The position numbers and the translations under genes were made by a program. DNA of 40,448 bases from an uncultured Legionellales bacterium (GTDB taxonomy: Bacteria > Pseudomonadota > Gammaproteobacteria > Eutrophobiales > Eutrophobiaceae). Each line of letters opens with the position of its first letter. The first letter of the stretch is position 1. The stretch lies in contig CAJWIE010000001.1 in the NCBI GenBank assembly GCA_913041115.1, positions 1 through 40,448 on the forward strand, written 5' to 3'. Positions 3,682 to 17,874 of the stretch are shown here, piece by piece. The notes under the pieces are model-generated. The model was not told the origin of the DNA. It saw nothing but the letters and a program-made list of their open reading frames with translations, and searched no databases.

Positions 3682-4638
3682 ATGAGATTCTTTTATACGC
3701 TATTAACATTAATATTATTTTTATCTAATTCTGTTGTTGCGAATGCTGATAATCGAATATTTGTTACTAATGAAAGAAGTAATACAGTCTCGGTTATCGA
3801 CGCAAAGTCATTAAATGTTGAAAACACAATTGAAATCGGTGAACGTCCTCGGGGAATTGGTCTCTCGCCAAATGGAAATGAACTTTATATCGCAATCAGC
3901 GAAGAAAATAAAATTGTTGTTATGGACCCAGATTCATTAGAAATTCTGAGAGAATTTAAGGCAGGTTCTGATCCTGAAACTTTTGCTGTTCATCCAAATG
4001 GTAATATTTACATTTCAAATGAGGATGATGCAAAGGCAACTGTTTTTAATCCAAAAACCGGAGAGAAAATTGCAGAAATCAAAGTTGGTTTAGAGCCAGA
4101 GGGTGTTGCTATATCTCATGATGGAGAACGAGTAATCATTACAAGTGAATCAACTAATATGCTGCATGTTATAAGAGCTTCAGAAAATATAATTGAAAGT
4201 AATATTCTTGTCGGTTCACGGCCACGTTCGGCTGTTTTTACGAAGTCTGGTGATATTGTATACGCAACCGCTGAAATTAGTGGTGAAGTTGTTAAAGTTG
4301 ATATTAATAAAGCTAAAATCATTAAAACTGGATCAACCGGTGATGCTAAATCAAAACCAAAAGATGTTATCCTCAGTAAAGATGAAAAAATTATCTATGT
4401 AGCAGGCGGCCGAGCAAATAAGGTTATTGTTATGGATGCTGATACCCTCGAAATTATTAAAAACATACCAGTTGGAAAACGTGTCTGGGGTTTAGCAATG
4501 TCTAGTGATGGTCAACGTATTTTTACAACAAACGGCGTAAGTGGTACCGTTTCTGTTATTAATACTGTAAAAAACGAAGTTATTAAAACTATCGAAGTTG
4601 GTAAATTTCCTTGGGGAGTTGTTGTAAAAGATAAATAA
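3682..4638 (+). CDS. YVTN-family seven-bladed beta-propeller protein (PQQ-dependent catabolism-associated type)
   Basis: 318 aa with signal peptide MRFFYTLLTLILFLSNSVVANA. There are about six visible repeats of the pattern V-x-V-[IM]-D-x(5-8)-I-x-VG-x-x-P-x-G-[IV]-x-x-S-x-[DN]G-x-x-[IL]-[YF]. AAGGAG SD at 3669-3674. Confidence 0.8.
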   Translation: MRFFYTLLTLILFLSNSVVANADNRIFVTNERSNTVSVIDAKSLNVENTIEIGERPRGIGLSPNGNELYIAISEENKIVVMDPDSLEILREFKAGSDPETFAVHPNGNIYISNEDDAKATVFNPKTGEKIAEIKVGLEPEGVAISHDGERVIITSESTNMLHVIRASENIIESNILVGSRPRSAVFTKSGDIVYATAEISGEVVKVDINKAKIIKTGSTGDAKSKPKDVILSKDEKIIYVAGGRANKVIVMDADTLEIIKNIPVGKRVWGLAMSSDGQRIFTTNGVSGTVSVINTVKNEVIKTIEVGKFPWGVVVKDK

Positions 4639-4639
4639 A

Positions 4640-5284
4640 TTATGCTTTGATAATATTATGCCTAATCGCTATCCTCGCAATATCCGCGACGGTAGAGGCT
4701 TGCAGCTTGTTTTTTATTTGTGAGCTGTAATTAGCTACAGTCTTATAACTTATATTTAATTCTTTACTAATCTCATTAGTATTTTTGCCTTCCGCTAATA
4801 AACAAAAAATTTGAAACTCTCGAGCTGATAAATCTGATAATAGAGAATCACCCTCTCGTGACTGCTCATACTCATAAGTCATCTTTTGTCTCAGATCATC
4901 ATCAATATATTTTTTACCCTGTGACACATGCTTAATGGCTTTTGATAGTAATTTAGGATCTGTGCTTTTTGTCATATAGCCAATGGCACCTGCTTGCAAA
5001 GCCCTTTCAACAAAAACAACCTCTTCATGCATAGTAAAAACCAGCACTTTGATATCATGATCATTAGAAACTATACGTCTAATAGCCTCAATACCATTTA
5101 TCCCTGGCAAAGATATATCCATAACAACAACATTAGGACGAAGTTTGGTAGATAACTCAATTGCCTCTTCTCCAGTATCTGCCTCAGCTATAACATCAAT
5201 ATAATCAATATTTTTTAATAAAATTTTATAGCCAGCACGAACAACAGCGTGGTCATCAACTAAAATTACTTTGATTTTTTTCAT
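4640..5284 (-). CDS. NarL/FixJ (LuxR-type HTH) response regulator, ExaE/PedR-like
   Basis: 214 aa. The receiver has VILVDDH...VVVMDISLPG (phospho-Asp context). The C-terminal LuxR HTH is LSAREFQIFCLLAEGKNTNEISKELNISYKTVANYSSQI. It lies 14 nt downstream of its kinase. Confidence 0.9.
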   Translation of the reverse strand: MKKIKVILVDDHAVVRAGYKILLKNIDYIDVIAEADTGEEAIELSTKLRPNVVVMDISLPGINGIEAIRRIVSNDHDIKVLVFTMHEEVVFVERALQAGAIGYMTKSTDPKLLSKAIKHVSQGKKYIDDDLRQKMTYEYEQSREGDSLLSDLSAREFQIFCLLAEGKNTNEISKELNISYKTVANYSSQIKNKLQASTVADIARIAIRHNIIKA

Positions 5285-5298
5285 GTAATAAATAACTA

Positions 5299-6633
5299 TT
5301 AATTTTCTATAGGAATTAGTATATGTATATTAAAGCCATTACCTGGCTTACTAAAAAATTCAAATTTTCCATTATGCATTTCAACGCGTTCTTTCATGCC
5401 CAATAACCCAAAACCAAGCTTCACATCATCTATATCTAGACCAATACCATCATCATATATTTCTAAATCAATTTTCTCTATATTATTATGTTCAGTTTTT
5501 TTTGCCCTTACAGTAATCCTGCTTGCTTTGGAATATTTTAATGTATTAGTTAAGCTTTCTTGAATAATTCTGTATAAACTTATTTTTAATGATTCTGATA
5601 AATTATCAGGAATATTCGAGAAGCTAAAATCACAAAAAATCTCATCTTGATTATCGTTCCATTCGTCCATCATATTTTGCAATGCTTTAATCAAACCAAA
5701 TTCATCGAGCACAGATGGACGTAATCTATGCATCATATTTTTTGCAACCTGATAAATATGATCTGAATAATCAACAATTGTTTTTACGCTTGAATTAATA
5801 AATCTTTTTTCCAATGTTGTTTTATTTGAAATCGATACAGCGACTGCTTTAATAGCAGTAATTGTTTGTCCTAATTCGTCATGAAGTTCCTGGGAAAGTA
5901 CTCGCCTCTCCTCTTCTTGGATTTCAAGTAAACGATGTCTTAAAAATTGGTTCCTTTCACTGGTTTCAAATAATACTTTTGCCATATGATTGAATTGTGC
6001 TGAAATACGATCAAGCTCAGGTAGAGGGAAATGAGGCAGTTCCAACTTATAGTTGCCTTCCTTTATATCGGAAAGCCCTTCTAATATTTTTTCAATAGGT
6101 GATAGATATAGCCCTATCAATACATATATAAGAAAATTAGCAAGAACAATAAATACTGATAAAAATATTAAAATATTTCTTGTTTCAATCCAACTCTCAT
6201 GAATTTCATCTAATGGATCAGGTTTTATGAGAACATCAATCGGTGTTGTAACAGGCGTATATAACCATCGGCGAATTTCAGTGGCGGGTGGCTGTACAAG
6301 ACTAACAAACCACTCTGGCGCATCGCTTTCCTTAAATAAAATATCCTCATCACTTGGTATAAGAATATCAGTAGGGCTTCTAAGCTCGATGTGAAGGTGC
6401 CTTATTGTTTTTAATTCTGCTAATTTACGTAAAAAACTCAGTTTCTGATCGCCGGCATCAGGTAATGAAGAGGCTGATGCTGCTTGAATTAATTGAAGCG
6501 CAAGTTGTGTGCTCGATTCGACCTCGCTGTGGACAGAACGACGTGCATTTGTGATGGTATAAAAACTACTACACAAAAACAAAATGACTAATAACGTAGT
6601 TATTAAGATATTAAGCCTGACCCTAAGGCTCAT
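5299..6633 (-). CDS. Sensor histidine kinase, HisKA_3 (NarX/ExaD-like) class with periplasmic sensor domain and HAMP
   Basis: 444 aa with two TM segments (ILITTLLVILFLCSSF and ILIFLSVFIVLANFLIYVLIGLYL). The H-box is LSQELHDELGQTITAIK. The HATPase motifs are IIQESLTNTLKYS...DDGIGL...GFGLLGMKER. Confidence 0.9.
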   Translation of the reverse strand: MSLRVRLNILITTLLVILFLCSSFYTITNARRSVHSEVESSTQLALQLIQAASASSLPDAGDQKLSFLRKLAELKTIRHLHIELRSPTDILIPSDEDILFKESDAPEWFVSLVQPPATEIRRWLYTPVTTPIDVLIKPDPLDEIHESWIETRNILIFLSVFIVLANFLIYVLIGLYLSPIEKILEGLSDIKEGNYKLELPHFPLPELDRISAQFNHMAKVLFETSERNQFLRHRLLEIQEEERRVLSQELHDELGQTITAIKAVAVSISNKTTLEKRFINSSVKTIVDYSDHIYQVAKNMMHRLRPSVLDEFGLIKALQNMMDEWNDNQDEIFCDFSFSNIPDNLSESLKISLYRIIQESLTNTLKYSKASRITVRAKKTEHNNIEKIDLEIYDDGIGLDIDDVKLGFGLLGMKERVEMHNGKFEFFSKPGNGFNIHILIPIEN

Positions 6634-6809
6634 AGAACTATTTCACCTCTTTAATAATCTAATTATTCGGTATAAAGTCTGACTTATTGCCACAGAAATA
6701 TGATAAATTTCAATTAAATATATTAAAATTTCTATGTAAAAGCTTACTTGTTAATTTACAATACCACCAATTTTATTAGAACTATATAAAGAACAGGGAA
6801 AAATTCCTA

Positions 6810-7772
6810 ATGGAAAAAAACATTAAATATTTTTTAATTAGACTCTCATTCGGCATTCTACTGATATCTGTTGTTTTTGCAGAGCCAGAAACAACTGATT
6901 CAACAACTGATTCCGTTATTCAAGAAGATAGTGCTGCCGCTGAAACAACACCAGAGCCTAAAAACAATGAAACTTCAGAATCTCTAGAAAATGAAAATAC
7001 CGCTCCTGTGGTAAAGGAAAAAACTGTAAATACAGCTGACAATCAGGATTTACCCAATGAAATTGATGCGGAAAAAACTCTTGGGGCTGCTGTTGAGACT
7101 AAAATTGAAGCTCAAAAAGAGGCAGTTAAATCACAAAATACAATTGATCAGTTGACAGATGAAACAAGAGATATGGTGCAAGAATATCGAAATGCTATAC
7201 GAAAAACAGATAGTCTTAGTTCTTATAACCAGCAATTAGCAAAATTAGTAAAACAACAAAAAATTTCCCTAAGTTCTATACAACGACAGCTTGAAAATGC
7301 AGAAGAAACGAAACGTAGTATTGTTCCTTTTATAAATAAAATGATAGGGACTCTTGAAAAATTCGTGCGACTTGATCTGCCATTTCTTCTAGATGAAAGA
7401 CGTCAACGTATCTCTACATTAAAACAAATTGTAAATTTTCCTGATATCACGCTCCCTGATAAATATCGCCGAGTAATGGAAGCTTATCAAATAGAAATTG
7501 AGTACGGGCGAACAATTGAGGCCTATAACGACACTATTACAGTTGATGGTAAGGAATATACTGTTGAAATATTACGTGTGGGACGACTTCTTATGACATT
7601 TCAAACGTCTGACGGAGAACTCAGCGGTATATGGAATAAGCATTCTAAAGCATGGAGAAAATTACCATCAGAATATAATCGTTCAATTAATCAAGGCCTG
7701 TTAATAGCAAAAAAACAAGCTCCACCTGAATTAATTAAGCTACCCGTTACTGCTGCGGGGAAAAAATTATGA
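6810..7772 (+). CDS. DUF3450-type periplasmic coiled-coil protein (TtpB-like, TonB2 system)
   Basis: 320 aa. It has a signal peptide, then an acidic/Thr-rich stretch of about 70 aa, then a coiled-coil and a C-terminal domain. Its stop overlaps the next start (ATGA at 7769-7772). The position ahead of a large MotA/ExbB protein matches the Vibrio TonB2 cluster order. Confidence 0.65.
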   Translation: MEKNIKYFLIRLSFGILLISVVFAEPETTDSTTDSVIQEDSAAAETTPEPKNNETSESLENENTAPVVKEKTVNTADNQDLPNEIDAEKTLGAAVETKIEAQKEAVKSQNTIDQLTDETRDMVQEYRNAIRKTDSLSSYNQQLAKLVKQQKISLSSIQRQLENAEETKRSIVPFINKMIGTLEKFVRLDLPFLLDERRQRISTLKQIVNFPDITLPDKYRRVMEAYQIEIEYGRTIEAYNDTITVDGKEYTVEILRVGRLLMTFQTSDGELSGIWNKHSKAWRKLPSEYNRSINQGLLIAKKQAPPELIKLPVTAAGKKL

Positions 7773-9214
7773 ACAGATTAATGATATTAGTTTTTATTCT
7801 TTTCATATCTTTTTCGTATGCAGAAGAAGCAAGTAATTTGGATGAACTATTAGAACAAGTAAAAAAAGAGCGGACATTACAGAAAGAAGAACTTTTACAA
7901 AGGGAATCGAGATTTAAGAATGCATATAGTAAACAAAAAAAACTATTAGAAGTTGCTGCAAAAAAACTTAAAGAAGAAGAAGATCGAAGCGAATCATTAA
8001 AAGCTACATATGAAAGTTATGATAGTGAGATAAAAAAACAAAAAGATATATTAGATGAAAGAATGGGTACCCTTGGTGAACTGGATGGAATTGTCAAACA
8101 AATAGCAGGTGAACTTGATTCCATAATTGATACATCACTGGTCTCTGCGCAGAAACCTGATAGAGATAAAATACTCGACATATTGTCAACCAGAAAAGAA
8201 CTTCCCTCGTATGAAGATTTGGAAGAGCTCTGGCTATTAGCCATGGACGAAATGGTTGAATCTGGGAAAGTGGTTCGCTTTCCTGGAAAAATAGTAACCG
8301 CCTCAGGAAATGAAATAGAACAAGAGATTACTCGTATTGGAGTTTTCAACGCTATCTCTGCTGGTCGTTTTCTAAGATCGTTGCCAGAATCAGGGATTTT
8401 AATAGAACCAGGCAGGCAGCCGGGGCAGCGTTTCCTTGAAATGGCGAGAGGAATTGAAAATGCAGATTCAGGAATACACCCTTTCCCTGTCGATCCGACT
8501 CGCGGAGCAATGTTAGCATTGCTAGTACAAGTGCCCGATCTTAAAAATCGTATAGAGCAAGGTGGTTTAATTGGATATGCTATTTTAATTATTGGATTTA
8601 TAGGCGTTTTATTGGCTATTGAAAGGCTAGTCAGTTTATTTCTAACAAATCGAAAAGTACAAGAACAACTAGAAAGTAACGAGCCCGGCGATAATCCGCT
8701 TGGCCGTATTATGATTGTTTATAAAAATAATCCTGAAACAGATGCTGAAACTCTCGGGTTGAAACTTGATGAAGCTATCCTAAAGGAAATGCCAAGACTT
8801 CAACGCGGCCTATGGACAATAGCGCTGCTCGCTGCCGTATCACCGCTACTTGGATTACTTGGTACTGTTACTGGTATTATCGAGACATTTCAATCTATCA
8901 CATTGTACGGAACGGGCGACCCTCGTGTTATGTCTGGCGGTATATCACAGGCGCTCGTAACAACAGTTATGGGACTACTAGTTGCTATTCCACTATTGCT
9001 CTTTCATGGGTACCTTTCTTCAAAAAGTAATGGGCTAGTTCAAATTTTAGATGAAAAAAGTATTGCTTACGTTGCATTACTAGCAGATGAAAATCGTAAA
9101 AAAGTTTTTGGTCAATCTCAATTTCAAAATGTTAGAAAGGAAGATAATGCTAAACCAAATACAGTAAATAAAGAGGATAATGAACCGGAATTCTATATAC
9201 CAGAAGATGAATAA
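7769..9214 (+). CDS. Large MotA/TolQ/ExbB-family proton channel protein (TtpC-like)
   Basis: 481 aa. The N-terminal periplasmic coiled-coil is followed by a C-terminal channel domain with LLGLLGTVTGIIETFQSI and GGISQALVTTVMGLLVAIPLL. Confidence 0.8.
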   Translation: MNRLMILVFILFISFSYAEEASNLDELLEQVKKERTLQKEELLQRESRFKNAYSKQKKLLEVAAKKLKEEEDRSESLKATYESYDSEIKKQKDILDERMGTLGELDGIVKQIAGELDSIIDTSLVSAQKPDRDKILDILSTRKELPSYEDLEELWLLAMDEMVESGKVVRFPGKIVTASGNEIEQEITRIGVFNAISAGRFLRSLPESGILIEPGRQPGQRFLEMARGIENADSGIHPFPVDPTRGAMLALLVQVPDLKNRIEQGGLIGYAILIIGFIGVLLAIERLVSLFLTNRKVQEQLESNEPGDNPLGRIMIVYKNNPETDAETLGLKLDEAILKEMPRLQRGLWTIALLAAVSPLLGLLGTVTGIIETFQSITLYGTGDPRVMSGGISQALVTTVMGLLVAIPLLLFHGYLSSKSNGLVQILDEKSIAYVALLADENRKKVFGQSQFQNVRKEDNAKPNTVNKEDNEPEFYIPEDE

Positions 9215-13152: not shown

Positions 13153-13449
13153 TCATTTTTTTGAATTAAATTTTTCTTTTTGTTCTGTGGTAGCTTCCTT
13201 TTGGTATTTCTTTTTCCACTCCAAATATGGTATGCCATAAATAATCTCTCTAGCCGATTCGTAATCAATCTTAATATCTCTTTCCTCGGCAGCTGCTCTA
13301 TACCATTTCGAAAGACAATTTCTACAAAAATCAGCTAAATTCATAAGATCAATATTCTGTACTTCTGTATGAGCTCTTAAATGCTCTAACAATCTTCTAA
13401 AAGTTGCCGCCTCAATTTCTACTCGCTTATTTTTGTCTATTTTTTTCAT
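13153..13449 (-). CDS. DUF1244 family protein
   Basis: 98 aa. FRRLLEHLRAHTEVQNIDLMNLADFCRNCLSKWY matches my recollection of the DUF1244 core. It lies 5 nt downstream of the sigma-54 regulator on the same strand. Confidence 0.65.
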   Translation of the reverse strand: MKKIDKNKRVEIEAATFRRLLEHLRAHTEVQNIDLMNLADFCRNCLSKWYRAAAEERDIKIDYESAREIIYGIPYLEWKKKYQKEATTEQKEKFNSKK

Positions 13450-13454
13450 ATTTC

Positions 13455-14852
13455 TTACAAATTATATTTCTTGATTCGATAACGCAAGGCCATCCGTGTA
13501 ATTCCAAGTTCTCTTGCTGCCTTTGATACATTGCGATTTGTGCGTTCTAAAGCTGATTTAATTAATTGTAATTCTGCCTCACCCAATGTTATATCATGAT
13601 TAATTTCTACTTCATTATTAATTTTTTCATTTTTATCTATATTAAGAATATTAATATCGATAACCCCTCCTCCACTTAGTAAAACAGCACGCTCAATAAG
13701 GTGCTTTAATTCTCTAACGTTTCCATGCCATGAATATTCTTTAAGTTGCTTAAGTGCTTCTTTTGAAAATCCCTCAAATAATAATCCATAACGTTTTGAT
13801 GTTAAACTAGCACAGTAATTTGCTAATAATAAAATATCTTTATCCCTATCTCGCAAGGATGGCATAGTAAGTGTTATGACATTTAATCGATAATATAAAT
13901 CAGAACGAAATTCTCCTCTTTTCACTAATGACTCAATATCCCTATTTGTTGCAGCTATTATCCATGCAGCAACTGGAAGTTCTTTTGTTGAACCCAGTCT
14001 TCTTAATGATCTGCGCTCTAATACTGCTAAAAGCTTTGATTGTAAATCAATTGGTATTTCAGCAATTTCATCTAAAAATAAAACACCCTCTTCAGCAGCT
14101 TCAATTAAACCTGCTCGAGCAACATTTGCATTTGTAAATGCTCCTTTTTCATGGCCAAATAATTCTGACTCTATCAAATCTTTCGGTAAAGATGCGCAAT
14201 CAACGTGGACAAAAGGTCTTGTGTTTAAGCCGCTTTTCGCATGTAGTAAACGAGCAACCACATCCTTGCCCGTCCCAGTTTCACCAAGAATTAGTACCGT
14301 CGGTGGAACACCCGATTCAGACTGGGTGAGAGATGATATCTTCTCGACTTGCTCCCGTATAAAATTGATTTGTCTGCATTCTCCAAGAAATTTAACTTCT
14401 TCGAAAGCATGTTGTTCGCGTTTTGCTGAATAGCTTAATTTTTGCGTAAGTTCATTTTTATCAATTACTTTTTTAACATTTACATATAACTCTTCCAGGT
14501 CAATGGGTTTCTTTAGATAATCAGAAGCACCTAATTTCATTGCAGATACTGCGTCTTCAAGTTCTCCATATGCAGACATTACTAGTACTTCAGTATTCGT
14601 ATTTTTAGATTTTATTTCATTTAATAAATCAAGTCCCGAACCATCCGGCAATCGCATATCTAACAAAATAAGATCAGGAATATTTTCTTTTAAATACAGT
14701 CTTGCAGATTTTAAATCAGATGCTAAGTTAATATCATATCCTTTACGTAACAAATGTTTTTTCACTGCATTTCCAAAAACAGTTTCATCTTCGACTAAAA
14801 GAATTTGTTTTTTTAGAATAGGTATTTCAGTAGACATTGAGTCATGCATCAT
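13455..14852 (-). CDS. Sigma-54-dependent (NtrC-family) response regulator
   Basis: 465 aa. The receiver has ILLVEDE...LILLDMRLPDGSG. The AAA+ domain has Walker A GETGTGKD, ESELFGHEKGAFTNA (a variant of GAFTGA), FLDEI and FRSDLYYRLNV. The Fis-type HTH is VSKAARELGITRMALRYRIKKY. Its start overlaps the kinase stop (ATGA at 14849-14852). Confidence 0.95.
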   Translation of the reverse strand: MMHDSMSTEIPILKKQILLVEDETVFGNAVKKHLLRKGYDINLASDLKSARLYLKENIPDLILLDMRLPDGSGLDLLNEIKSKNTNTEVLVMSAYGELEDAVSAMKLGASDYLKKPIDLEELYVNVKKVIDKNELTQKLSYSAKREQHAFEEVKFLGECRQINFIREQVEKISSLTQSESGVPPTVLILGETGTGKDVVARLLHAKSGLNTRPFVHVDCASLPKDLIESELFGHEKGAFTNANVARAGLIEAAEEGVLFLDEIAEIPIDLQSKLLAVLERRSLRRLGSTKELPVAAWIIAATNRDIESLVKRGEFRSDLYYRLNVITLTMPSLRDRDKDILLLANYCASLTSKRYGLLFEGFSKEALKQLKEYSWHGNVRELKHLIERAVLLSGGGVIDINILNIDKNEKINNEVEINHDITLGEAELQLIKSALERTNRNVSKAARELGITRMALRYRIKKYNL

Positions 14853-16318
14853 GAAAATCCCTTACCTAAATTAATCGGGGCTTTAATAATTACTTCGGTC
14901 CCTTTTCCTGATTTTGTTTTAAAATCAAGTTGCCAATTATGTTTTTGGCATATCTTGAAGGCTATAGGTATTCCTAAGCCCGTACCATAACGTTTTGTTG
15001 ACGGTCCCGGCTCAAGATTTCCAGGTTTTGGCTCAAAAAGTAGCCCAGAACCGCTATCTTGAATTCGAATCTCAAGTGTATCTTTATTATTTATTATATT
15101 AATTTTTAGAATACTTGATTCCGAACTCGCATCAATTGCATTTGCTAATAAACTATATATTGCCTGCTCCATCAAATCTGGATCAACATTTAATAAAACT
15201 GAATCTTCCCAACCATTTTTTACTAGCTTTATTCTTTTTTCTTTTATTTTGTTATCAAGCACTTCTAATACTGCATCAACTAGTCGTGATGCATCAACAT
15301 TAATTAAATTTGGCTCTAAAGGGTGCAAGTACGAAACTAATGAGCTAACCCATCGACCTAAACGATCTATCGTATCTATTATGGCCTGTTTTGATTCATT
15401 AATTTCTTTTTTATTATCAGCGTGTTCAAGTAATTGTGCGCTCGCCCTAATGCTTGCTAATGGATTGCGTATGTTATGGGCAACAACTGGAATTAGTGAG
15501 CCCAATGCAACTTGCCTTTCATTTTCTAAAAGTGCTTCTCTATTACGTGATAGTTCATCAGCCATTTTATTAATCGTATTAGCTAATTCTGATACTTCTT
15601 CAACACCCTCTTCTTTTATTTGGTAATTTAATTTGCCGTGACTTATTTTACCTGCGCCTTCCATAACATTAGCAATTGGCGCAATGAATTGTATTCTCAT
15701 AATATGACGAGTATAAAAAACAATAATAAACGCAATAATAAGGGGTATAGGTATAATAAATGGTGCAAATTTTGTCCAGATTTCAAGTGTTTTATCTAAT
15801 TCTTCATGGTTACCTCTTAATAATGATTTGAATGAATGGTATCGATTTTCGAATTTCCCTACCATTTGCTGAGCAAAGGTTGGATTAAGAATCTGAATTT
15901 TTGATAAACGATCGGCAATATACGGGTTACTGAAAATATTATTCATATCAACCTGGATTTCTCTGTAAGAAAGATTCAGTTCCTGAATTGCTTGATCCTC
16001 TTTACGTGAATTCGACTTTCTTCTAAGTTCGTTAAATAATTCAGAAATACTACGTGAATATTCAGGATATGTTTCTAGCGCATGAGCATCTTCTAGTATT
16101 CGTGCGCGAATCATTTCTTGAATCTGTGCATAAAGCTCGCCTCGTATCTGTTCAGTAAGATAAAACATTGCATTTATACGGACTGATTCTGCCGAATTCT
16201 GCTGCCAAAAAAATGCTGAGACCCCACCAATCAGACCCATAGCAGCAACTAGAAATAAAATTGCAATTTCATGACGAAATATAAGATTATTTAAAGACTT
16301 AGGTGAAAAAAATGACAT
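14849..16318 (-). CDS. Sensor histidine kinase (two TM, HAMP, HisKA, HATPase_c) partnered with the NtrC-family regulator
   Basis: 489 aa. The H-box is VAHNIRNPLASIRASAQLL. The N/G boxes are LLANAIDAS...QDSGSGL...GTGLGIPIAFKI. Confidence 0.9.
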   Translation of the reverse strand: MSFFSPKSLNNLIFRHEIAILFLVAAMGLIGGVSAFFWQQNSAESVRINAMFYLTEQIRGELYAQIQEMIRARILEDAHALETYPEYSRSISELFNELRRKSNSRKEDQAIQELNLSYREIQVDMNNIFSNPYIADRLSKIQILNPTFAQQMVGKFENRYHSFKSLLRGNHEELDKTLEIWTKFAPFIIPIPLIIAFIIVFYTRHIMRIQFIAPIANVMEGAGKISHGKLNYQIKEEGVEEVSELANTINKMADELSRNREALLENERQVALGSLIPVVAHNIRNPLASIRASAQLLEHADNKKEINESKQAIIDTIDRLGRWVSSLVSYLHPLEPNLINVDASRLVDAVLEVLDNKIKEKRIKLVKNGWEDSVLLNVDPDLMEQAIYSLLANAIDASSESSILKINIINNKDTLEIRIQDSGSGLLFEPKPGNLEPGPSTKRYGTGLGIPIAFKICQKHNWQLDFKTKSGKGTEVIIKAPINLGKGFS

Positions 16319-16340
16319 AGTTGTTAATTATATCTTACAA

Positions 16341-16358
16341 TTGGTCCAAATGAACCAA
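16341..16358. promoter_or_regulatory. Inverted repeat TTGGT-N8-ACCAA in the kinase/pqqA divergent intergenic region; candidate activator binding site
   Basis: TTGGTCCAAATGAACCAA read directly. It lies about 110 nt upstream of the sigma-54-like element and about 200 nt upstream of pqqA, a position consistent with an enhancer-binding-protein UAS. This rests on position only. Confidence 0.2.
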
Positions 16359-16466
16359 ACTTTTGGATAAAATTAGCCAAAAAAAACAACAATTGTTCCT
16401 TTCATACTGGCATTTTTTATTCCTAACCAATTGTTTATTATGATAATAATAGAAAATCTCTAAAAT

Positions 16467-16482
16467 TGGCATGATATCTGAA
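16467..16482 (+). promoter_or_regulatory. Weak sigma-54 (-24/-12)-like element upstream of pqqA
   Basis: TGGCAT-GATAT-CTGAA compared with consensus TGGCAC-N5-TTGCA. The GG and the spacing are correct, but the -12 has G and not the GC dinucleotide. It is about 80 nt upstream of the pqqA ATG. Confidence 0.2.
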
Positions 16483-16561
16483 TAATAAAAAGTGCACGGT
16501 AATTAAAGTGTCCCGTTCTCATCGGGTATTTAACAACTAACTATTCTTAAGGAGAGTTAAT

Positions 16562-16636
16562 ATGAAATGGGAAACTCCAGAATATAGTGACATCCGCTTT
16601 GGCTTCGAAGTCACCATGTACATCAACAATAAATAA
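16562..16636 (+). CDS. pqqA: PqqA, pyrroloquinoline quinone precursor peptide (24 aa)
   Basis: ATG at 16562 preceded by GGAGAG (16551-16556). The translation is MKWETPEYSDIRFGFEVTMYINNK*, close to known PqqA peptides (e.g. [23 protein letters not shown]) and including the cross-linked Glu-X3-Tyr pair (E16...Y20). It is followed by an intrinsic terminator. It is too short for the ORF track. Confidence 0.85.
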   Translation: MKWETPEYSDIRFGFEVTMYINNK

Positions 16637-16655
16637 TTGTTGTCTTAGCTTAAGC

Positions 16656-16689
16656 AAAAAAAGGAGTCTTTTGACTCCTTTTTTATTTT
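16656..16689. terminator. Bidirectional rho-independent terminator between pqqA (+) and cytochrome b561 (-)
   Basis: A7 run, GGAGTC (16663-16668), loop TTTT, GACTCC (16673-16678), then TTTTTTATTTT. The A-tract/T-tract symmetry allows termination in both directions. Confidence 0.65.
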
Positions 16690-16712
16690 GCTCCCAGTGC
16701 ATTCTTATTTGA

Positions 16713-17240
16713 TCAAAACCACATTCTTTTAAATAGATGAAATTGTTTTTTATAAATATGGTACATCGCACCTGATATATGCAGAAATATAAGTAGTCCG
16801 AAAATTACTGCGCTAATATCATGCATTGTGGTGAATAACTGATTAAGTTCGGGCGACTTCCATCCCCAATGAGGCAGGGGTATTCCCCAAAATTTTGTTT
16901 TATACCCACTAAAAGAAGAGGATATATATCCTGTAATGGGTTGAATAAACATCATTAGATAAAGTAAATTATGCGTAGATACTGCCGCTATTTTTTGGAT
17001 GGGAGTTACATCATCTGGCAAAGCAGGTGATTCTGAAATAAGTTTCCAAAATAATCTAAGCAAAACTAAGAGTGCGAGTGTTAAACCCATTGATTTATGT
17101 AACGCAAAAAACCAACTTCGCTCATCACTGCCCTTCGGCAAATCAACCATATATATACCTAAAATAAACATACATATTAGTAAAATTGCCATGATCCAAT
17201 GAATAATAACTGCAACTGTATTGTATCGTCTAATATCCAT
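16713..17240 (-). CDS. Cytochrome b561 family protein (CybB-like, dihaem membrane cytochrome)
   Basis: 175 aa with four TM helices. His ligands are in the typical contexts (VAVIIHWIMAILL, FALHKSMGL, STHNLLYLMMF, FLHISGAMYH). Confidence 0.85.
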   Translation of the reverse strand: MDIRRYNTVAVIIHWIMAILLICMFILGIYMVDLPKGSDERSWFFALHKSMGLTLALLVLLRLFWKLISESPALPDDVTPIQKIAAVSTHNLLYLMMFIQPITGYISSSFSGYKTKFWGIPLPHWGWKSPELNQLFTTMHDISAVIFGLLIFLHISGAMYHIYKKQFHLFKRMWF

Positions 17241-17313
17241 TCGCTATTCCCACGTGATAATATAGTATTATAAATAACCATCTTATATACATAAATATTA
17301 AAAATAAAAAAAT

Positions 17314-17874
17314 ATGTCTAAAAATCTAATAATATTTTGTATTCTTACTATCATTATAGTTATGCCTCTACCAATAAGTGCTGAGGATTACCAGATTATA
17401 GTTTCCAAAAGCAATAAAGAACTTGCATTAAAAAAATCAAATAATATTGTAAAAAAATATCATATCGCTACTGGTAAAGGCGGACAAGGAACTAAAAGAA
17501 AACGTGGCGATAGTAAAACACCATTAGGTGTCTATCGAATTTCTAAACTTAGTAAAAGTAAGCGCTTTTATTATTTTATACAACTTGATTACCCAAATTT
17601 AATCGACGCATGGTATGGTTTTAAAAATGAAGTTATTAATGGTGGTGATTTTAAACGTATTGCAAGTGCATATAAAAAGCGTGAATTTCCGCCACAAGAT
17701 ACAAATTTAGGAGGACAGATAGGAATTCATGGCATTGGTAATACAACAAAAAAGAAATTAGCAATTCATAAAGAACTTAACTGGACCGATGGGTGTATCG
17801 CTTTAACAAATGATGATATAAGTGATCTTATAAAATTTATTAAAATTGGAACAACTGTAGTAATTAAAGAATAA
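17314..17874 (+). CDS. L,D-transpeptidase-fold protein, YafK-like (YkuD domain)
   Basis: 186 aa with signal peptide ...PLPISA-ED. GDSKTPLGVYRI...LDYPN resembles the YafK family. The catalytic motif is IGIHG...NWTDGCIALTNDDISDL (His/Cys of YkuD domains). Confidence 0.75.
   Translation: MSKNLIIFCILTIIIVMPLPISAEDYQIIVSKSNKELALKKSNNIVKKYHIATGKGGQGTKRKRGDSKTPLGVYRISKLSKSKRFYYFIQLDYPNLIDAWYGFKNEVINGGDFKRIASAYKKREFPPQDTNLGGQIGIHGIGNTTKKKLAIHKELNWTDGCIALTNDDISDLIKFIKIGTTVVIKE

What the first reader, a model, noticed from the sequence alone, without database searches (positions are those of the whole stretch)
16562..16636. Unannotated stand-alone pqqA (24 codons) with no pqqBCDE in 40 kb
The small ORF MKWETPEYSDIRFGFEVTMYINNK carries the PqqA hallmark E-X3-Y within FGFEVTMY. 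It has a GGAGAG SD 5 nt upstream and its own strong terminator 20 nt downstream. It is invisible to length-thresholded ORF callers, and the track instead lists a spurious antisense 74-aa ORF.

No pqqB/C/D/E follows. The gene is monocistronic, convergent with cytochrome b561 and divergent from a sigma-54 two-component operon. PQQ-related accessory genes (propeller, binding protein, ExaDE-like regulators, aldehyde dehydrogenase) sit 10-16 kb away. This suggests precursor supply is regulated separately from the processing enzymes.
Basis: partly seen in the sequence, partly recalled or inferred. Interest (0 to 1): 0.6.

Follow-up and report, generated by a model that had tools for sequence, protein, structure and literature searches.

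The report
Stand-alone pqqA under sigma-54 control
This is a real copy of the tiny gene whose 24-residue peptide is turned into the redox cofactor PQQ. A pqqA lying apart from the enzyme genes is already known, but here it, a second copy and the enzyme operon share one promoter type and one palindromic enhancer, which point to the neighbouring sensor kinase and activator as a dedicated and apparently undescribed switch for PQQ synthesis.

Summary
The ORF at 16562-16636 is a genuine pqqA: it scores 46.9 bits on TIGR02107 (cut-off 20) and 43.1 on PF08042 (cut-off 21.1). It has a Shine-Dalgarno site, a 12-pair terminator, and substitutions across relatives concentrated at third codon positions.

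It is not an orphan in the genome. pqqBCDE lie on contig C51, and a second pqqA encoding the identical peptide lies on C17. A PQQ alcohol dehydrogenase gene is present but split across two contig ends. Stand-alone and multi-copy pqqA genes are already published (Methylophilaceae; Methylosinus OB3b).

The new element is the wiring. pqqA2 and pqqB carry canonical sigma-54 promoters, and the window copy carries the same motif without the -12 C. All three have a TGGTT-N6-AACCA palindrome about 100-145 nt upstream. The adjacent kinase and NtrC-type activator (loop GAFTNA) stay next to pqqA across many gammaproteobacterial families, and 37 of the 40 sampled genomes with the kinase also have pqqB. 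So "regulated separately" is only partly right: the units are physically separate but probably co-regulated.

This scan had already noted the same module on other DNA.

The parts
13455..14852 (-). NtrC-family response regulator and sigma-54 activator (REC + AAA+ + HTH_8) with loop GAFTNA in place of GAFTGA; proposed activator of the pqq promoters
   Evidence: Pfam PF00158 205.7 bits, PF00072 and PF02954. It reaches no NCBIfam equivalog cut-off. GAFTNA is present and conserved in 24 of 24 family orthologues. The fifth loop residue is not Gly in 23 of 24 distant orthologues.
14849..16318 (-). Membrane histidine kinase (HAMP, HisKA, HATPase) that partners the activator, divergent from pqqA
   Evidence: Pfam. 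Synteny with pqqA holds in 24 of 26 orthologous loci, the other two being truncated. Orthologues occur in 40 of 400 genomes of the class, 37 of which have pqqB.
16342..16357 (.). Upstream palindrome 1, TGGTCCAAATGAACCA (TGGTT-N6-AACCA with one mismatch); proposed activator-binding site, starting 125 nt upstream of the -24 element
   Evidence: Conserved in genus orthologues and shared with the pqqA2 and pqqB upstream regions. Genome-wide specificity. Coordinates.
16364..16379 (.). Upstream palindrome 2, TGGATAAAATTAGCCA (two mismatches), centred 22 bp from palindrome 1
   Evidence: A tandem second site is present in all genus orthologues and at pqqA2, and in distant families about 22 bp from the first. 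Coordinates.
16467..16482 (+). Sigma-54-type promoter motif TGGCATGATATCTGAA, with GG at -24 and correct spacing but TGA in place of TGC at -12
   Evidence: TGGCAYGA-N4-TG is conserved in all close orthologues, and distant orthologues have a canonical GC at the same position. There are no more sigma-70-like sites than in shuffles.
16494..16511 (+). Leader hairpin 1 (GCAC / GTGT, 10-nt loop), beginning at about the predicted transcription start near 16493
   Evidence: RNAalifold. Helix 1 is 97% paired, with 3 of 5 pairs changed on both sides. Loop length varies from 4 to 10 nt among species.
16512..16526 (+). Leader hairpin 2, CCCG-TTCTCAT-CGGG
   Evidence: Helix 2 is 100% paired, and all 4 pairs show compensatory changes. 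Stem variants include CCCA/TGGG, CTCGG/CCGAG and CCTGA/TCAGG.
16527..16537 (+). Conserved U-rich TTTAAC box between hairpin 2 and the ribosome-binding site; role unknown
   Evidence: Conserved in alignment A1. A similar TTTTAAC box lies in the pqqA2 leaders.
16550..16556 (+). Shine-Dalgarno sequence AGGAGAG, 5 nt before the ATG
   Evidence: Sequence. The AGGA core is invariant and the neighbouring bases nearly so in the leader alignment.
16562..16636 (+). pqqA (copy 1), 24 codons, the PQQ precursor peptide with E16 and Y20
   Evidence: PF08042 43.1 bits and TIGR02107 46.9 bits. 38 distinct nucleotide sequences give 9 peptides, and variable sites by codon position are 3/3/21.
16657..16689 (+). 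Intrinsic terminator with an A-run before and a T-run after the stem, so probably bidirectional and shared with the convergent cytochrome b561 gene
   Evidence: 12-pair stem with 4 G-C pairs and a T-tail. It is part of the minimum-free-energy fold of the predicted 201-nt transcript, z = -4.4.

Best explanation
The ORF is a functional pqqA. Its peptide supplies Glu16 and Tyr20, which PqqE and PqqD cross-link and which PqqB and PqqC (encoded on contig C51) then mature into PQQ for the cell's periplasmic PQQ alcohol dehydrogenase. That chemistry is established knowledge and was not tested here.

The gene is a self-contained unit of about 200 nt. It comprises a sigma-54-type promoter (16467-16482), a leader with two hairpins of which the first sits at the predicted 5' end, a strong ribosome-binding site, 24 codons and an intrinsic terminator.

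I infer that the divergently encoded kinase and NtrC-type activator (GAFTNA loop) switch it on by binding the tandem TGGTT-N6-AACCA palindromes upstream. I also infer that the same activator drives the second pqqA (C17) and pqqBCDE (C51), which carry the same palindrome and canonical sigma-54 promoters. PQQ synthesis would then be one regulon in three pieces.

The stand-alone state looks like the remnant of an older layout, with the two-component system beside a full pqqA-BCDE operon. That layout is still seen in other families.

PqqA is consumed one peptide per cofactor, so two gene copies and a hairpin-capped, presumably stable short mRNA would raise precursor supply. That last point is inference.
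For: **Identity.**
- HMM scores are well above cut-off.
- Codon-position variation is 3/3/21 over 38 distinct sequences.
- The two paralogues give an identical peptide with 11 synonymous differences in 75 nt and have unrelated flanks. Both types occur within the genus: both in four of the six relatives, one type in each of the other two.

**Pathway.**
- pqqB scores 409 bits, pqqC 350, pqqE 558 and pqqD 105, all over cut-off, on C51.
- PQQ dehydrogenase fragments lie at the ends of C21 and C64.

**Promoters.**
- TGGCACGCTAACTGCA lies 77 nt before pqqA2, and TGGCACGATTATCGCA lies before pqqB. Both are conserved in the genus.
- The window copy has TGGCAYGA-N4-TG conserved. Distant orthologues have the canonical GC at that place.
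- rpoN is present.
- Of 117 consensus-like sites, only 9 lie outside long open frames. Five of these sit at contig ends, two are pqqA2 and pqqB, and the remaining two are a site on C19 and a weaker one on C84.

**Enhancer.**
- The palindrome is shared by all three units across the genus.
- There are 5 exact copies genome-wide against 1.35 expected by chance, and 2 of them are at pqq loci.
- The combined palindrome-plus-promoter signature occurs at 5 sites, 3 of them the pqq loci. Shuffled genomes gave 0-2.

**Regulator link.**
- Kinase-pqqA synteny holds in 24 of 26 loci and in 12 of 29 loci from other families, with canonical promoters and tandem palindromes.
- 37 of 40 kinase-positive genomes are pqqB-positive, against 28 of 360 kinase-negative genomes.
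- The kinase lies within a few kb of pqqB in G101, G075, G172, G421 and G319.

**Leader.**
- 98.3% of cells are paired, 7 of 9 pairs change on both sides, and 0 of 500 shuffles reach the observed values.
- The leader model hits only kinase-adjacent copies.
Against: - The window copy lacks the -12 C (TGA), and so do its close relatives (A, G or T at that position). The GC dinucleotide is normally near-invariant in sigma-54 promoters, so this copy may be weakly sigma-54-dependent or not dependent at all.
- The activator's sigma-54-contact loop is GAFTNA, not GAFTGA.
- More complete genomes of the genus also encode a canonical NtrC, so a second activator is available.
- The window's second palindrome has two mismatches.
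- The genome is only 80% complete, so regulon size is a lower bound.
- The covariation alignment was fitted to the model, and the sequences are related.
- The co-occurrence counts are not phylogenetically independent.
Confidence: 0.7

Rival explanations
1. The window copy has lost sigma-54 dependence. It would be transcribed constitutively or by another sigma factor from the AT-rich spacer, while only pqqA2 and pqqBCDE remain under the activator. The retained palindromes would then serve autoregulation of the divergent kinase operon.
For: The -12 C is replaced in the whole close clade by A, G or T, with no single base conserved there. Palindrome 1 lies only 24 nt from the kinase start codon. 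One sigma-70-like site (ATGACA-18-TACAAT) lies on the + strand at 16312-16341.
Against: TGGCAYGA-N4-TG, its spacing and its distance to hairpin 1 are conserved while the flanking sequence diverges. Sigma-70-like sites are no more frequent than in shuffles (4 against 3.1), and none lies within 200 nt of the ATG. Distant orthologues have a canonical GC at the homologous place.
Confidence: 0.17
2. The pqq promoters are driven by a different sigma-54 activator, such as the NtrC of the genus, which would tie PQQ synthesis to nitrogen status. The neighbouring two-component system would control something else.
For: Genus relatives encode an NtrB/NtrC pair with a canonical GAFTGA loop. The neighbouring activator has a variant loop.
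Against: Adjacency of the kinase and activator to pqqA is conserved across more than 20 families, and they co-occur with pqqB in 37 of 40 genomes. The palindrome TGGTT-N6-AACCA differs from the NtrC site as I recall it (TGCACC-N5-GGTGCA, from memory). The variant loop is conserved, which argues for function and against decay.
Confidence: 0.06
3. The window copy is a redundant, poorly expressed or silent duplicate, and pqqA2 on C17 is the working precursor gene.
For: In other bacteria with several pqqA copies, one copy has been reported to dominate (recalled from a Methylovorus study that I did not read here). pqqA2 has the better promoter.
Against: The peptide of the window-type copy is almost invariant across more than 25 species, with synonymous changes only. 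Its ribosome-binding site, leader structure and terminator are also conserved. It is the copy with the deepest conserved synteny.
Confidence: 0.05
4. The real gene is the antisense 74-aa ORF (16547-16771, -), and the PqqA-like frame is coincidental.
For: The antisense ORF is open in this genome.
Against: The + frame passes two curated HMMs. Variation sits at third positions of the + frame. The antisense open frame changes length from 36 to 122 aa among relatives and runs through the terminator and into the cytochrome b561 gene.
Confidence: 0.01

Closest known systems
Stand-alone and multi-copy pqqA genes of methylotrophs (Methylophilaceae with 3-12 copies, PMC4109929; Methylosinus trichosporium OB3b, with an unannotated pqqA away from pqqBCDE at about 12,000 RPKM, PMC3615186)
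   Same: A tiny unannotated precursor gene away from a single pqqBCDE cluster, more than one copy per genome, and its own short transcription unit. In OB3b only the pqqA-sized region is highly expressed.
   Different: A different lineage, an uncultured marine gammaproteobacterium with a genome of about 1.3-1.5 Mb. Here the copies carry a sigma-54-type promoter, a shared palindromic enhancer and a conserved adjacent two-component system. None of these is mentioned in the passages of those two papers that I read.
Canonical pqqABCDE(F) operons of Pseudomonas, controlled by the LuxR-type regulator AgmR (PMC12997753)
   Same: The same biosynthetic genes and the same PqqA signature. A PQQ alcohol dehydrogenase, an ExaC-like aldehyde dehydrogenase, a PQQ-associated propeller and a LuxR-type two-component pair are also present in this window and genome.
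   Different: pqqA is not in the operon. The operon begins at pqqB with its own sigma-54 promoter. The proposed regulator is an NtrC-type sigma-54 activator, not AgmR. No PqqF reaches the cut-off.
NtrB/NtrC-type two-component systems with a nearby sigma-54 target (AtoS/AtoC, ZraS/ZraR)
   Same: A membrane kinase plus a REC-AAA+-HTH_8 activator, tandem inverted-repeat sites 100-150 nt upstream of a -24/-12 promoter, and a divergent target gene.
   Different: AtoC gives the best NCBIfam score, 364 bits against a cut-off of 714, so this is not an orthologue of any named system. The sigma-54-contact loop is GAFT[N/S/H/T]A throughout the lineage. The targets are PQQ genes.
5'-terminal stem-loops that stabilise bacterial mRNAs, such as the ompA 5' UTR (recalled, not checked here)
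   Same: A hairpin placed at the very 5' end of the predicted transcript and conserved with compensatory changes.
   Different: The function is untested. There is no Rfam match. A second hairpin and a U-rich box follow, which could equally be a protein-binding or sRNA-binding site.

Membership tests
PqqA (TIGR02107 / PF08042) | Score above the curated cut-off of the family models | tested here: met
   TIGR02107 46.9 bits (cut-off 20) and PF08042 43.1 bits (cut-off 21.1).
PqqA (TIGR02107 / PF08042) | Conserved Glu-X3-Tyr pair that becomes the PQQ skeleton | tested here: met
   E16-V-T-M-Y20. The pair is kept in 8 of the 9 peptide variants found among relatives; the ninth (L066) has a stop at the Glu codon.
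PqqA (TIGR02107 / PF08042) | Processing genes pqqB, C, D and E present in the same genome | tested here: met
   All four are over cut-off on contig C51 at 5215-8289 (-).
PqqA (TIGR02107 / PF08042) | The peptide is actually converted to PQQ | not testable with these tools
   This needs genetics or biochemistry. A PQQ-dependent dehydrogenase gene is present.
Sigma-54-dependent promoter | GG at -24 and GC at -12, ten bases apart | tested here: not met
   The window copy reads TGGCATGATATCTGAA: GG and the spacing are correct, but -12 is GA. The feature is met at pqqA2 (TGGCACGCTAACTGCA), at pqqB (TGGCACGATTATCGCA) and at the homologous position in distant orthologues. The window promoter is therefore filed as sigma-54-like, not as a proven member.
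Sigma-54-dependent promoter | rpoN and an activator present in the genome | tested here: met
   rpoN scores 476 bits on C8. The activator is at 13455-14852.
Sigma-54-dependent promoter | Upstream activator-binding sites (enhancer) | tested here: met
   Conserved tandem palindromes lie 100-145 nt upstream and are shared by three pqq units. Binding itself is untested.
Sigma-54-dependent promoter | Transcription lost without rpoN or the activator | not testable with these tools
   No transcript data.
NtrC-family sigma-54 activator (bacterial enhancer-binding protein) | REC + AAA+ sigma-54 interaction domain + HTH_8 architecture | tested here: met
   PF00072, PF00158 (205.7 bits), PF25601 and PF02954.
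NtrC-family sigma-54 activator (bacterial enhancer-binding protein) | GAFTGA loop that contacts sigma-54 | tested here: inconclusive
   The loop is GAFTNA, conserved in 24 of 24 orthologues. It is non-Gly at position 5 in 23 of 24 distant orthologues. F and T are kept. Whether this variant couples to sigma-54 is untested.
Rfam RNA families (for the leader) | Match to a curated covariance model | tested here: not met
   No relevant match at E up to 1 over 15800-17400. Only weak hits on the terminator.

The most novel reading that the evidence does not exclude
A dedicated two-component system, made of a periplasm-facing kinase and an NtrC-type activator with a lineage-specific GAFT[N/S/H/T]A loop, is the master switch of PQQ cofactor synthesis in a large share of PQQ-making Gammaproteobacteria (37 of 65 pqqB-positive genomes sampled). 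It would act through TGGTT-N6-AACCA enhancers and sigma-54 promoters on pqqA and pqqBCDE. The kinase-adjacent pqqA mRNA would carry a previously undescribed structured leader. The signal sensed by the kinase would be the unknown cue that sets PQQ supply.
Probability: 0.55. Interest if true: 0.55.

Novelty: new variant of a known kind. Interest (0 to 1): 0.45.

Why it matters
PQQ is the cofactor of periplasmic alcohol and sugar dehydrogenases that matter for methanol, ethanol and volatile-organic turnover in the sea and in soils.

How cells set PQQ supply is known in only a few model organisms: AgmR in Pseudomonas (PMC12997753) and, as I recall without having checked it here, the mxb and mxc systems in Methylorubrum.

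A conserved kinase and activator pair wired to pqqA and pqqBCDE gives a concrete regulator to test, a defined DNA site, and a way to ask what environmental signal turns cofactor synthesis on.

On the practical side, the case shows again that 24-codon pqqA genes are missed by length-thresholded gene callers. A genome can then look as if it lacked the precursor. The shared promoter and palindrome could serve as a search handle for such hidden copies.

Tried and rejected
- **Rfam.** The search across the locus gave nothing relevant.
- **"Sigma-54 serves only PQQ."** I first thought the neighbouring activator was the only genuine sigma-54 activator, and that sigma-54 might serve PQQ alone in this streamlined genome. 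More complete genomes of the genus carry a canonical NtrB/NtrC pair, so I rejected that. The C7 activator-like gene is NtrX-like and has no GAFTGA loop.
- **Other sigma-54-like sites.** Candidates on C9, C19, C46, C84, C89 and C94 were inspected and judged to be chance, intragenic or at contig ends.
- **PQQ dehydrogenase promoter.** A sigma-54-like motif before that gene on C21 (TGGCGTATCGATGGA) has the wrong spacing and no palindrome, so the enzyme gene is not assigned to the regulon.
- **Hairpin 1 as a DNA palindrome.** I considered it as a protein-binding site and rejected this as less likely, because the loop varies from 4 to 10 nt.
- **Hairpin 2 plus U-tract as an attenuator.** A 4-bp stem in this genome is too weak for me to argue that.
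- **DUF1244 gene.** It follows the activator directly only within the genus, so it is not part of the core module.
- **Organism.** It could not be named below the level of uncultured marine Gammaproteobacteria. Near relatives are deposited as "Legionellales bacterium SP289" and similar.
- **Literature.** Searches for pqqA with sigma-54, sigma54, rpoN or enhancer-binding protein found no paper describing this wiring. The library holds open-access papers only.

Full report
**1. The observation**

ATG 16562 to TAA 16636 on the + strand encodes MKWETPEYSDIRFGFEVTMYINNK.
- AGGAGAG lies at 16550-16556, five bases before the ATG.
- A 12-pair stem at 16657-16684, flanked by an A-run and a T-run, starts 20 nt after the stop. 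The terminator scan found 2 such sites where shuffles gave 0.2.
- The peptide scores 43.1 bits on Pfam PqqA (cut-off 21.1) and 46.9 bits on TIGR02107 (cut-off 20).

Among 53 pqqA copies collected from relatives there are 38 distinct nucleotide sequences but only 9 peptide variants. Variable sites fall 3/3/21 on codon positions 1/2/3. That is the signature of a translated gene.

The antisense 74-aa ORF is not conserved. The antisense open frame spanning pqqA ranges from 36 to 122 aa among relatives.

**2. Genome context**

The window is contig C1 of a 1.25-Mb, 120-contig assembly that is 80% complete with 35.5% G+C. Its nearest deposited relatives are uncultured marine Gammaproteobacteria MAGs.

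- The window holds no pqqB-E. They lie together on contig C51: pqqB 7375-8289, pqqC 6631-7356, pqqD 6350-6628 and pqqE 5215-6405, all on the minus strand and all over their curated cut-offs.
- The 290 bases upstream of pqqB contain no pqqA.
- A second pqqA on C17 (4493-4567) encodes the identical peptide with 11 synonymous differences and unrelated flanks.
- A methanol/ethanol-family PQQ dehydrogenase gene is present but split over the ends of C21 and C64.
- No PqqF reaches its cut-off.

The upstream accessory genes are as described:
- the propeller is over the TIGR03866 cut-off;
- the binding protein gives a partial TIGR03863 match;
- the aldehyde dehydrogenase is ExaC-like;
- a LuxR-type regulator and kinase pair is present.

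**3. Is a stand-alone pqqA unusual?**

No.
- In this genus every genome has pqqA and pqqB on different contigs or tens of kb apart. The window-type and C17-type paralogues both occur in the genus, together in four of the six relatives.
- In sister genera some genomes keep an adjacent pqqA-pqqB plus extra copies.
- Published work reports 3-12 pqqA copies with one pqqBCDE in Methylophilaceae (PMC4109929).
- It also reports an unannotated, separately located and very highly expressed pqqA in Methylosinus trichosporium OB3b (PMC3615186).

**4. What is new: shared cis-elements**

*Promoters.*
- pqqA2 is preceded by TGGCACGCTAACTGCA, and pqqB by TGGCACGATTATCGCA. Both are near-consensus sigma-54 promoters and both are conserved through the genus.
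- The window copy has TGGCATGATATCTGAA (16467-16482), with GG and the spacing correct but TGA at -12.
- Across 24 orthologous loci the motif TGGC-N8-TG is always present at the same distance from the leader.
- More distant orthologues have a canonical GC at the same position, for example TGGCATGAGTAATGCT, TGGCGCGATTTATGCT, TGGCACAGTTCTCGCT and TGGCACGAGATTCGCG.
- The promoter type is therefore ancestral, and the loss of the -12 C is specific to this clade.
- rpoN is present.
- Of 117 consensus-like GG-N10-GC sites in the genome, only 9 lie outside long open frames. Five of those are at contig ends, two are pqqA2 and pqqB, and the other two are a site on C19 and a weaker one on C84.

*Enhancer.*
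- About 100-145 nt upstream of each promoter lies a TGGTT-N6-AACCA palindrome.
- There are two tandem copies 22 bp apart before each pqqA paralogue. In the window these are 16342-16357 and 16364-16379. There is one copy before pqqB.
- All are conserved in the genus.
- Exact copies number 5 genome-wide against 1.35 expected, and 2 of them are at pqq loci.
- The combined signature of palindrome plus -24/-12 motif occurs at 5 sites, 3 of which are the pqq loci. Shuffled genomes gave 0-2.

**5. The regulator**

Divergent from pqqA are a membrane histidine kinase (14849-16318) and an NtrC-family activator (13455-14852) with REC, AAA+ and HTH_8 domains. The activator reaches no named NCBIfam equivalog.

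*The contact loop.*
- Its sigma-54-contact loop is GAFTNA.
- This is conserved in 24 of 24 family orthologues.
- Position 5 is non-Gly (S, N, H or T) in 23 of 24 orthologues from other families.
- The NtrC of the same genus keeps GAFTGA.

*Linkage to pqq genes.*
- Kinase-pqqA-cytochrome b561-YkuD synteny holds through the genus and many genera.
- 24 of 26 kinase-orthologue loci have the divergent pqqA, and the other two are truncated.
- In a 400-genome sample of the class, full-length kinase orthologues occur in 40 genomes from more than 20 families. Of these, 37 have pqqB, against 28 of the 360 without the kinase. The odds ratio is 146, but kin are not independent.
- Two of the three exceptions are weak matches at 29-31% identity.
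- In 12 of 29 distant loci a pqqA sits beside the kinase, most with canonical promoters (for example TGGCATGGTATCTGCA, TGGCACGCGAACTGCG, TGGCACGCCTCCTGCA) and the palindromes, in several as a tandem pair 22 bp apart.
- In G101, G075, G172, G421 and G319 the kinase lies within a few kb of pqqB. The ancestral layout was therefore probably the two-component system beside a whole pqqA-BCDE operon.

The window's stand-alone pqqA is best read as what stayed behind when pqqBCDE moved, with each piece keeping enhancer and promoter.

**6. The leader**

Between the promoter and the ribosome-binding site lie two adjacent hairpins (16494-16511 and 16512-16526) and then a U-rich TTTAAC box.
- The first hairpin begins at about the predicted start, near 16493. 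That estimate places the start 12 nt after the -12 position and is an inference.
- RNAalifold recovers both hairpins.
- A covariance model finds the leader only at kinase-adjacent pqqA copies, including three loci outside the training set.
- On that alignment 98.3% of cells pair, 7 of 9 pairs change on both sides, no shuffle of 500 reaches the observed values, and slid controls collapse.
- Caveats: the alignment is fitted to the model, and the sequences are related.
- Rfam has no match.

I infer a stabilising 5' stem-loop, in keeping with the very high pqqA mRNA levels reported elsewhere. A protein-binding or sRNA-binding role is not excluded.

**7. Weak points**

- The window copy fails the strict -12 GC test, so it is sigma-54-like but not proven.
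- The activator loop is non-canonical.
- A second activator (NtrC) exists in the genus.
- Literature searches found no description of sigma-54 control of pqq genes, and in Pseudomonas the regulator is AgmR. The library covers open-access papers only.

**8. Earlier notes of this scan**

First-reader notes on this window had flagged the imperfect sigma-54 motif, the TTGGT-N8-ACCAA repeat and GAFTNA. I confirmed and extended all three.

Follow-ups on other genomes reported stand-alone or tandem pqqA genes with sigma-54 promoters and an adjacent kinase and activator, including in Gemmatimonadales. The scan has therefore found this module before on other DNA. Those are unverified AI notes and are not counted as evidence here.

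**9. Verdict**

- The gene itself is ordinary and of a published kind.
- The conserved regulator, enhancer, promoter and leader module is an apparently undescribed variant of PQQ control, moderately interesting and directly testable.

Noticed in passing
L066 (JAJFKL010000044.1), minus strand, pqqA about 250 nt from the kinase start: This relative's kinase-adjacent pqqA has TAA in place of the cross-linking Glu codon (MKWDTPEYSDIRFGF*VTMYINNK), while its promoter motif, leader and ribosome-binding site are intact. It is either a sequencing error or a very recent pseudogene.
   Followed up: partly
G001 contigs C7 and C8 (L018, L041; PBJS01000002 and PBJS01000003): The whole kinase-pqqA-cytochrome b561-YkuD locus occurs twice, almost identically, in one MAG. 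It is either a true segmental duplication or bin redundancy (contamination 4%).
   Followed up: no
G000 contigs C21 (about 17103 to the end at 17489) and C64 (5830 to the end at 6336): The genome's methanol/ethanol-family PQQ dehydrogenase gene is broken across two contig ends. An automatic annotation could therefore miss the only PQQ enzyme.
   Followed up: partly
window 13153-13449 (-): A DUF1244 gene (126 bits) sits 5 nt after the activator gene. It follows the activator directly only within this genus and lies about 1.4 kb further away in a few other genera, so it is not part of the conserved module.
   Followed up: yes
G000 contig C7 (L050:1075-2433), with a kinase before it and trkA after it: An NtrX-like response regulator has a sigma-54-type AAA+ domain but no GAFTGA loop. 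It is therefore probably not a sigma-54 activator.
   Followed up: partly
G003:C9 (L121:1012-3478) and equivalents in G001, G004, G005 and G006: A canonical NtrB/NtrC pair is present in five genus relatives but not found in this 80%-complete assembly.
   Followed up: partly
G000 C17, about 4215-4240, and the same place in the six genus relatives: A conserved block, GGCGGCGAATTTAGCAYAAAC, lies about 200 nt upstream of the pqqA2 promoter in all seven genomes. It is unexplained and may be the end of a neighbouring gene or of an RNA.
   Followed up: no
window 16318-16357: The first palindrome lies only 24 nt from the kinase start codon, so activator binding may also autoregulate the kinase and activator operon.
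   Followed up: no
window 16527-16537, and the pqqA2 leaders (C17, about 4465-4475): Both pqqA paralogues share a TTTTAAC box 15-30 nt before the ribosome-binding site although the rest of their leaders is unrelated. It could be a translational or RNA-binding-protein signal.
   Followed up: no
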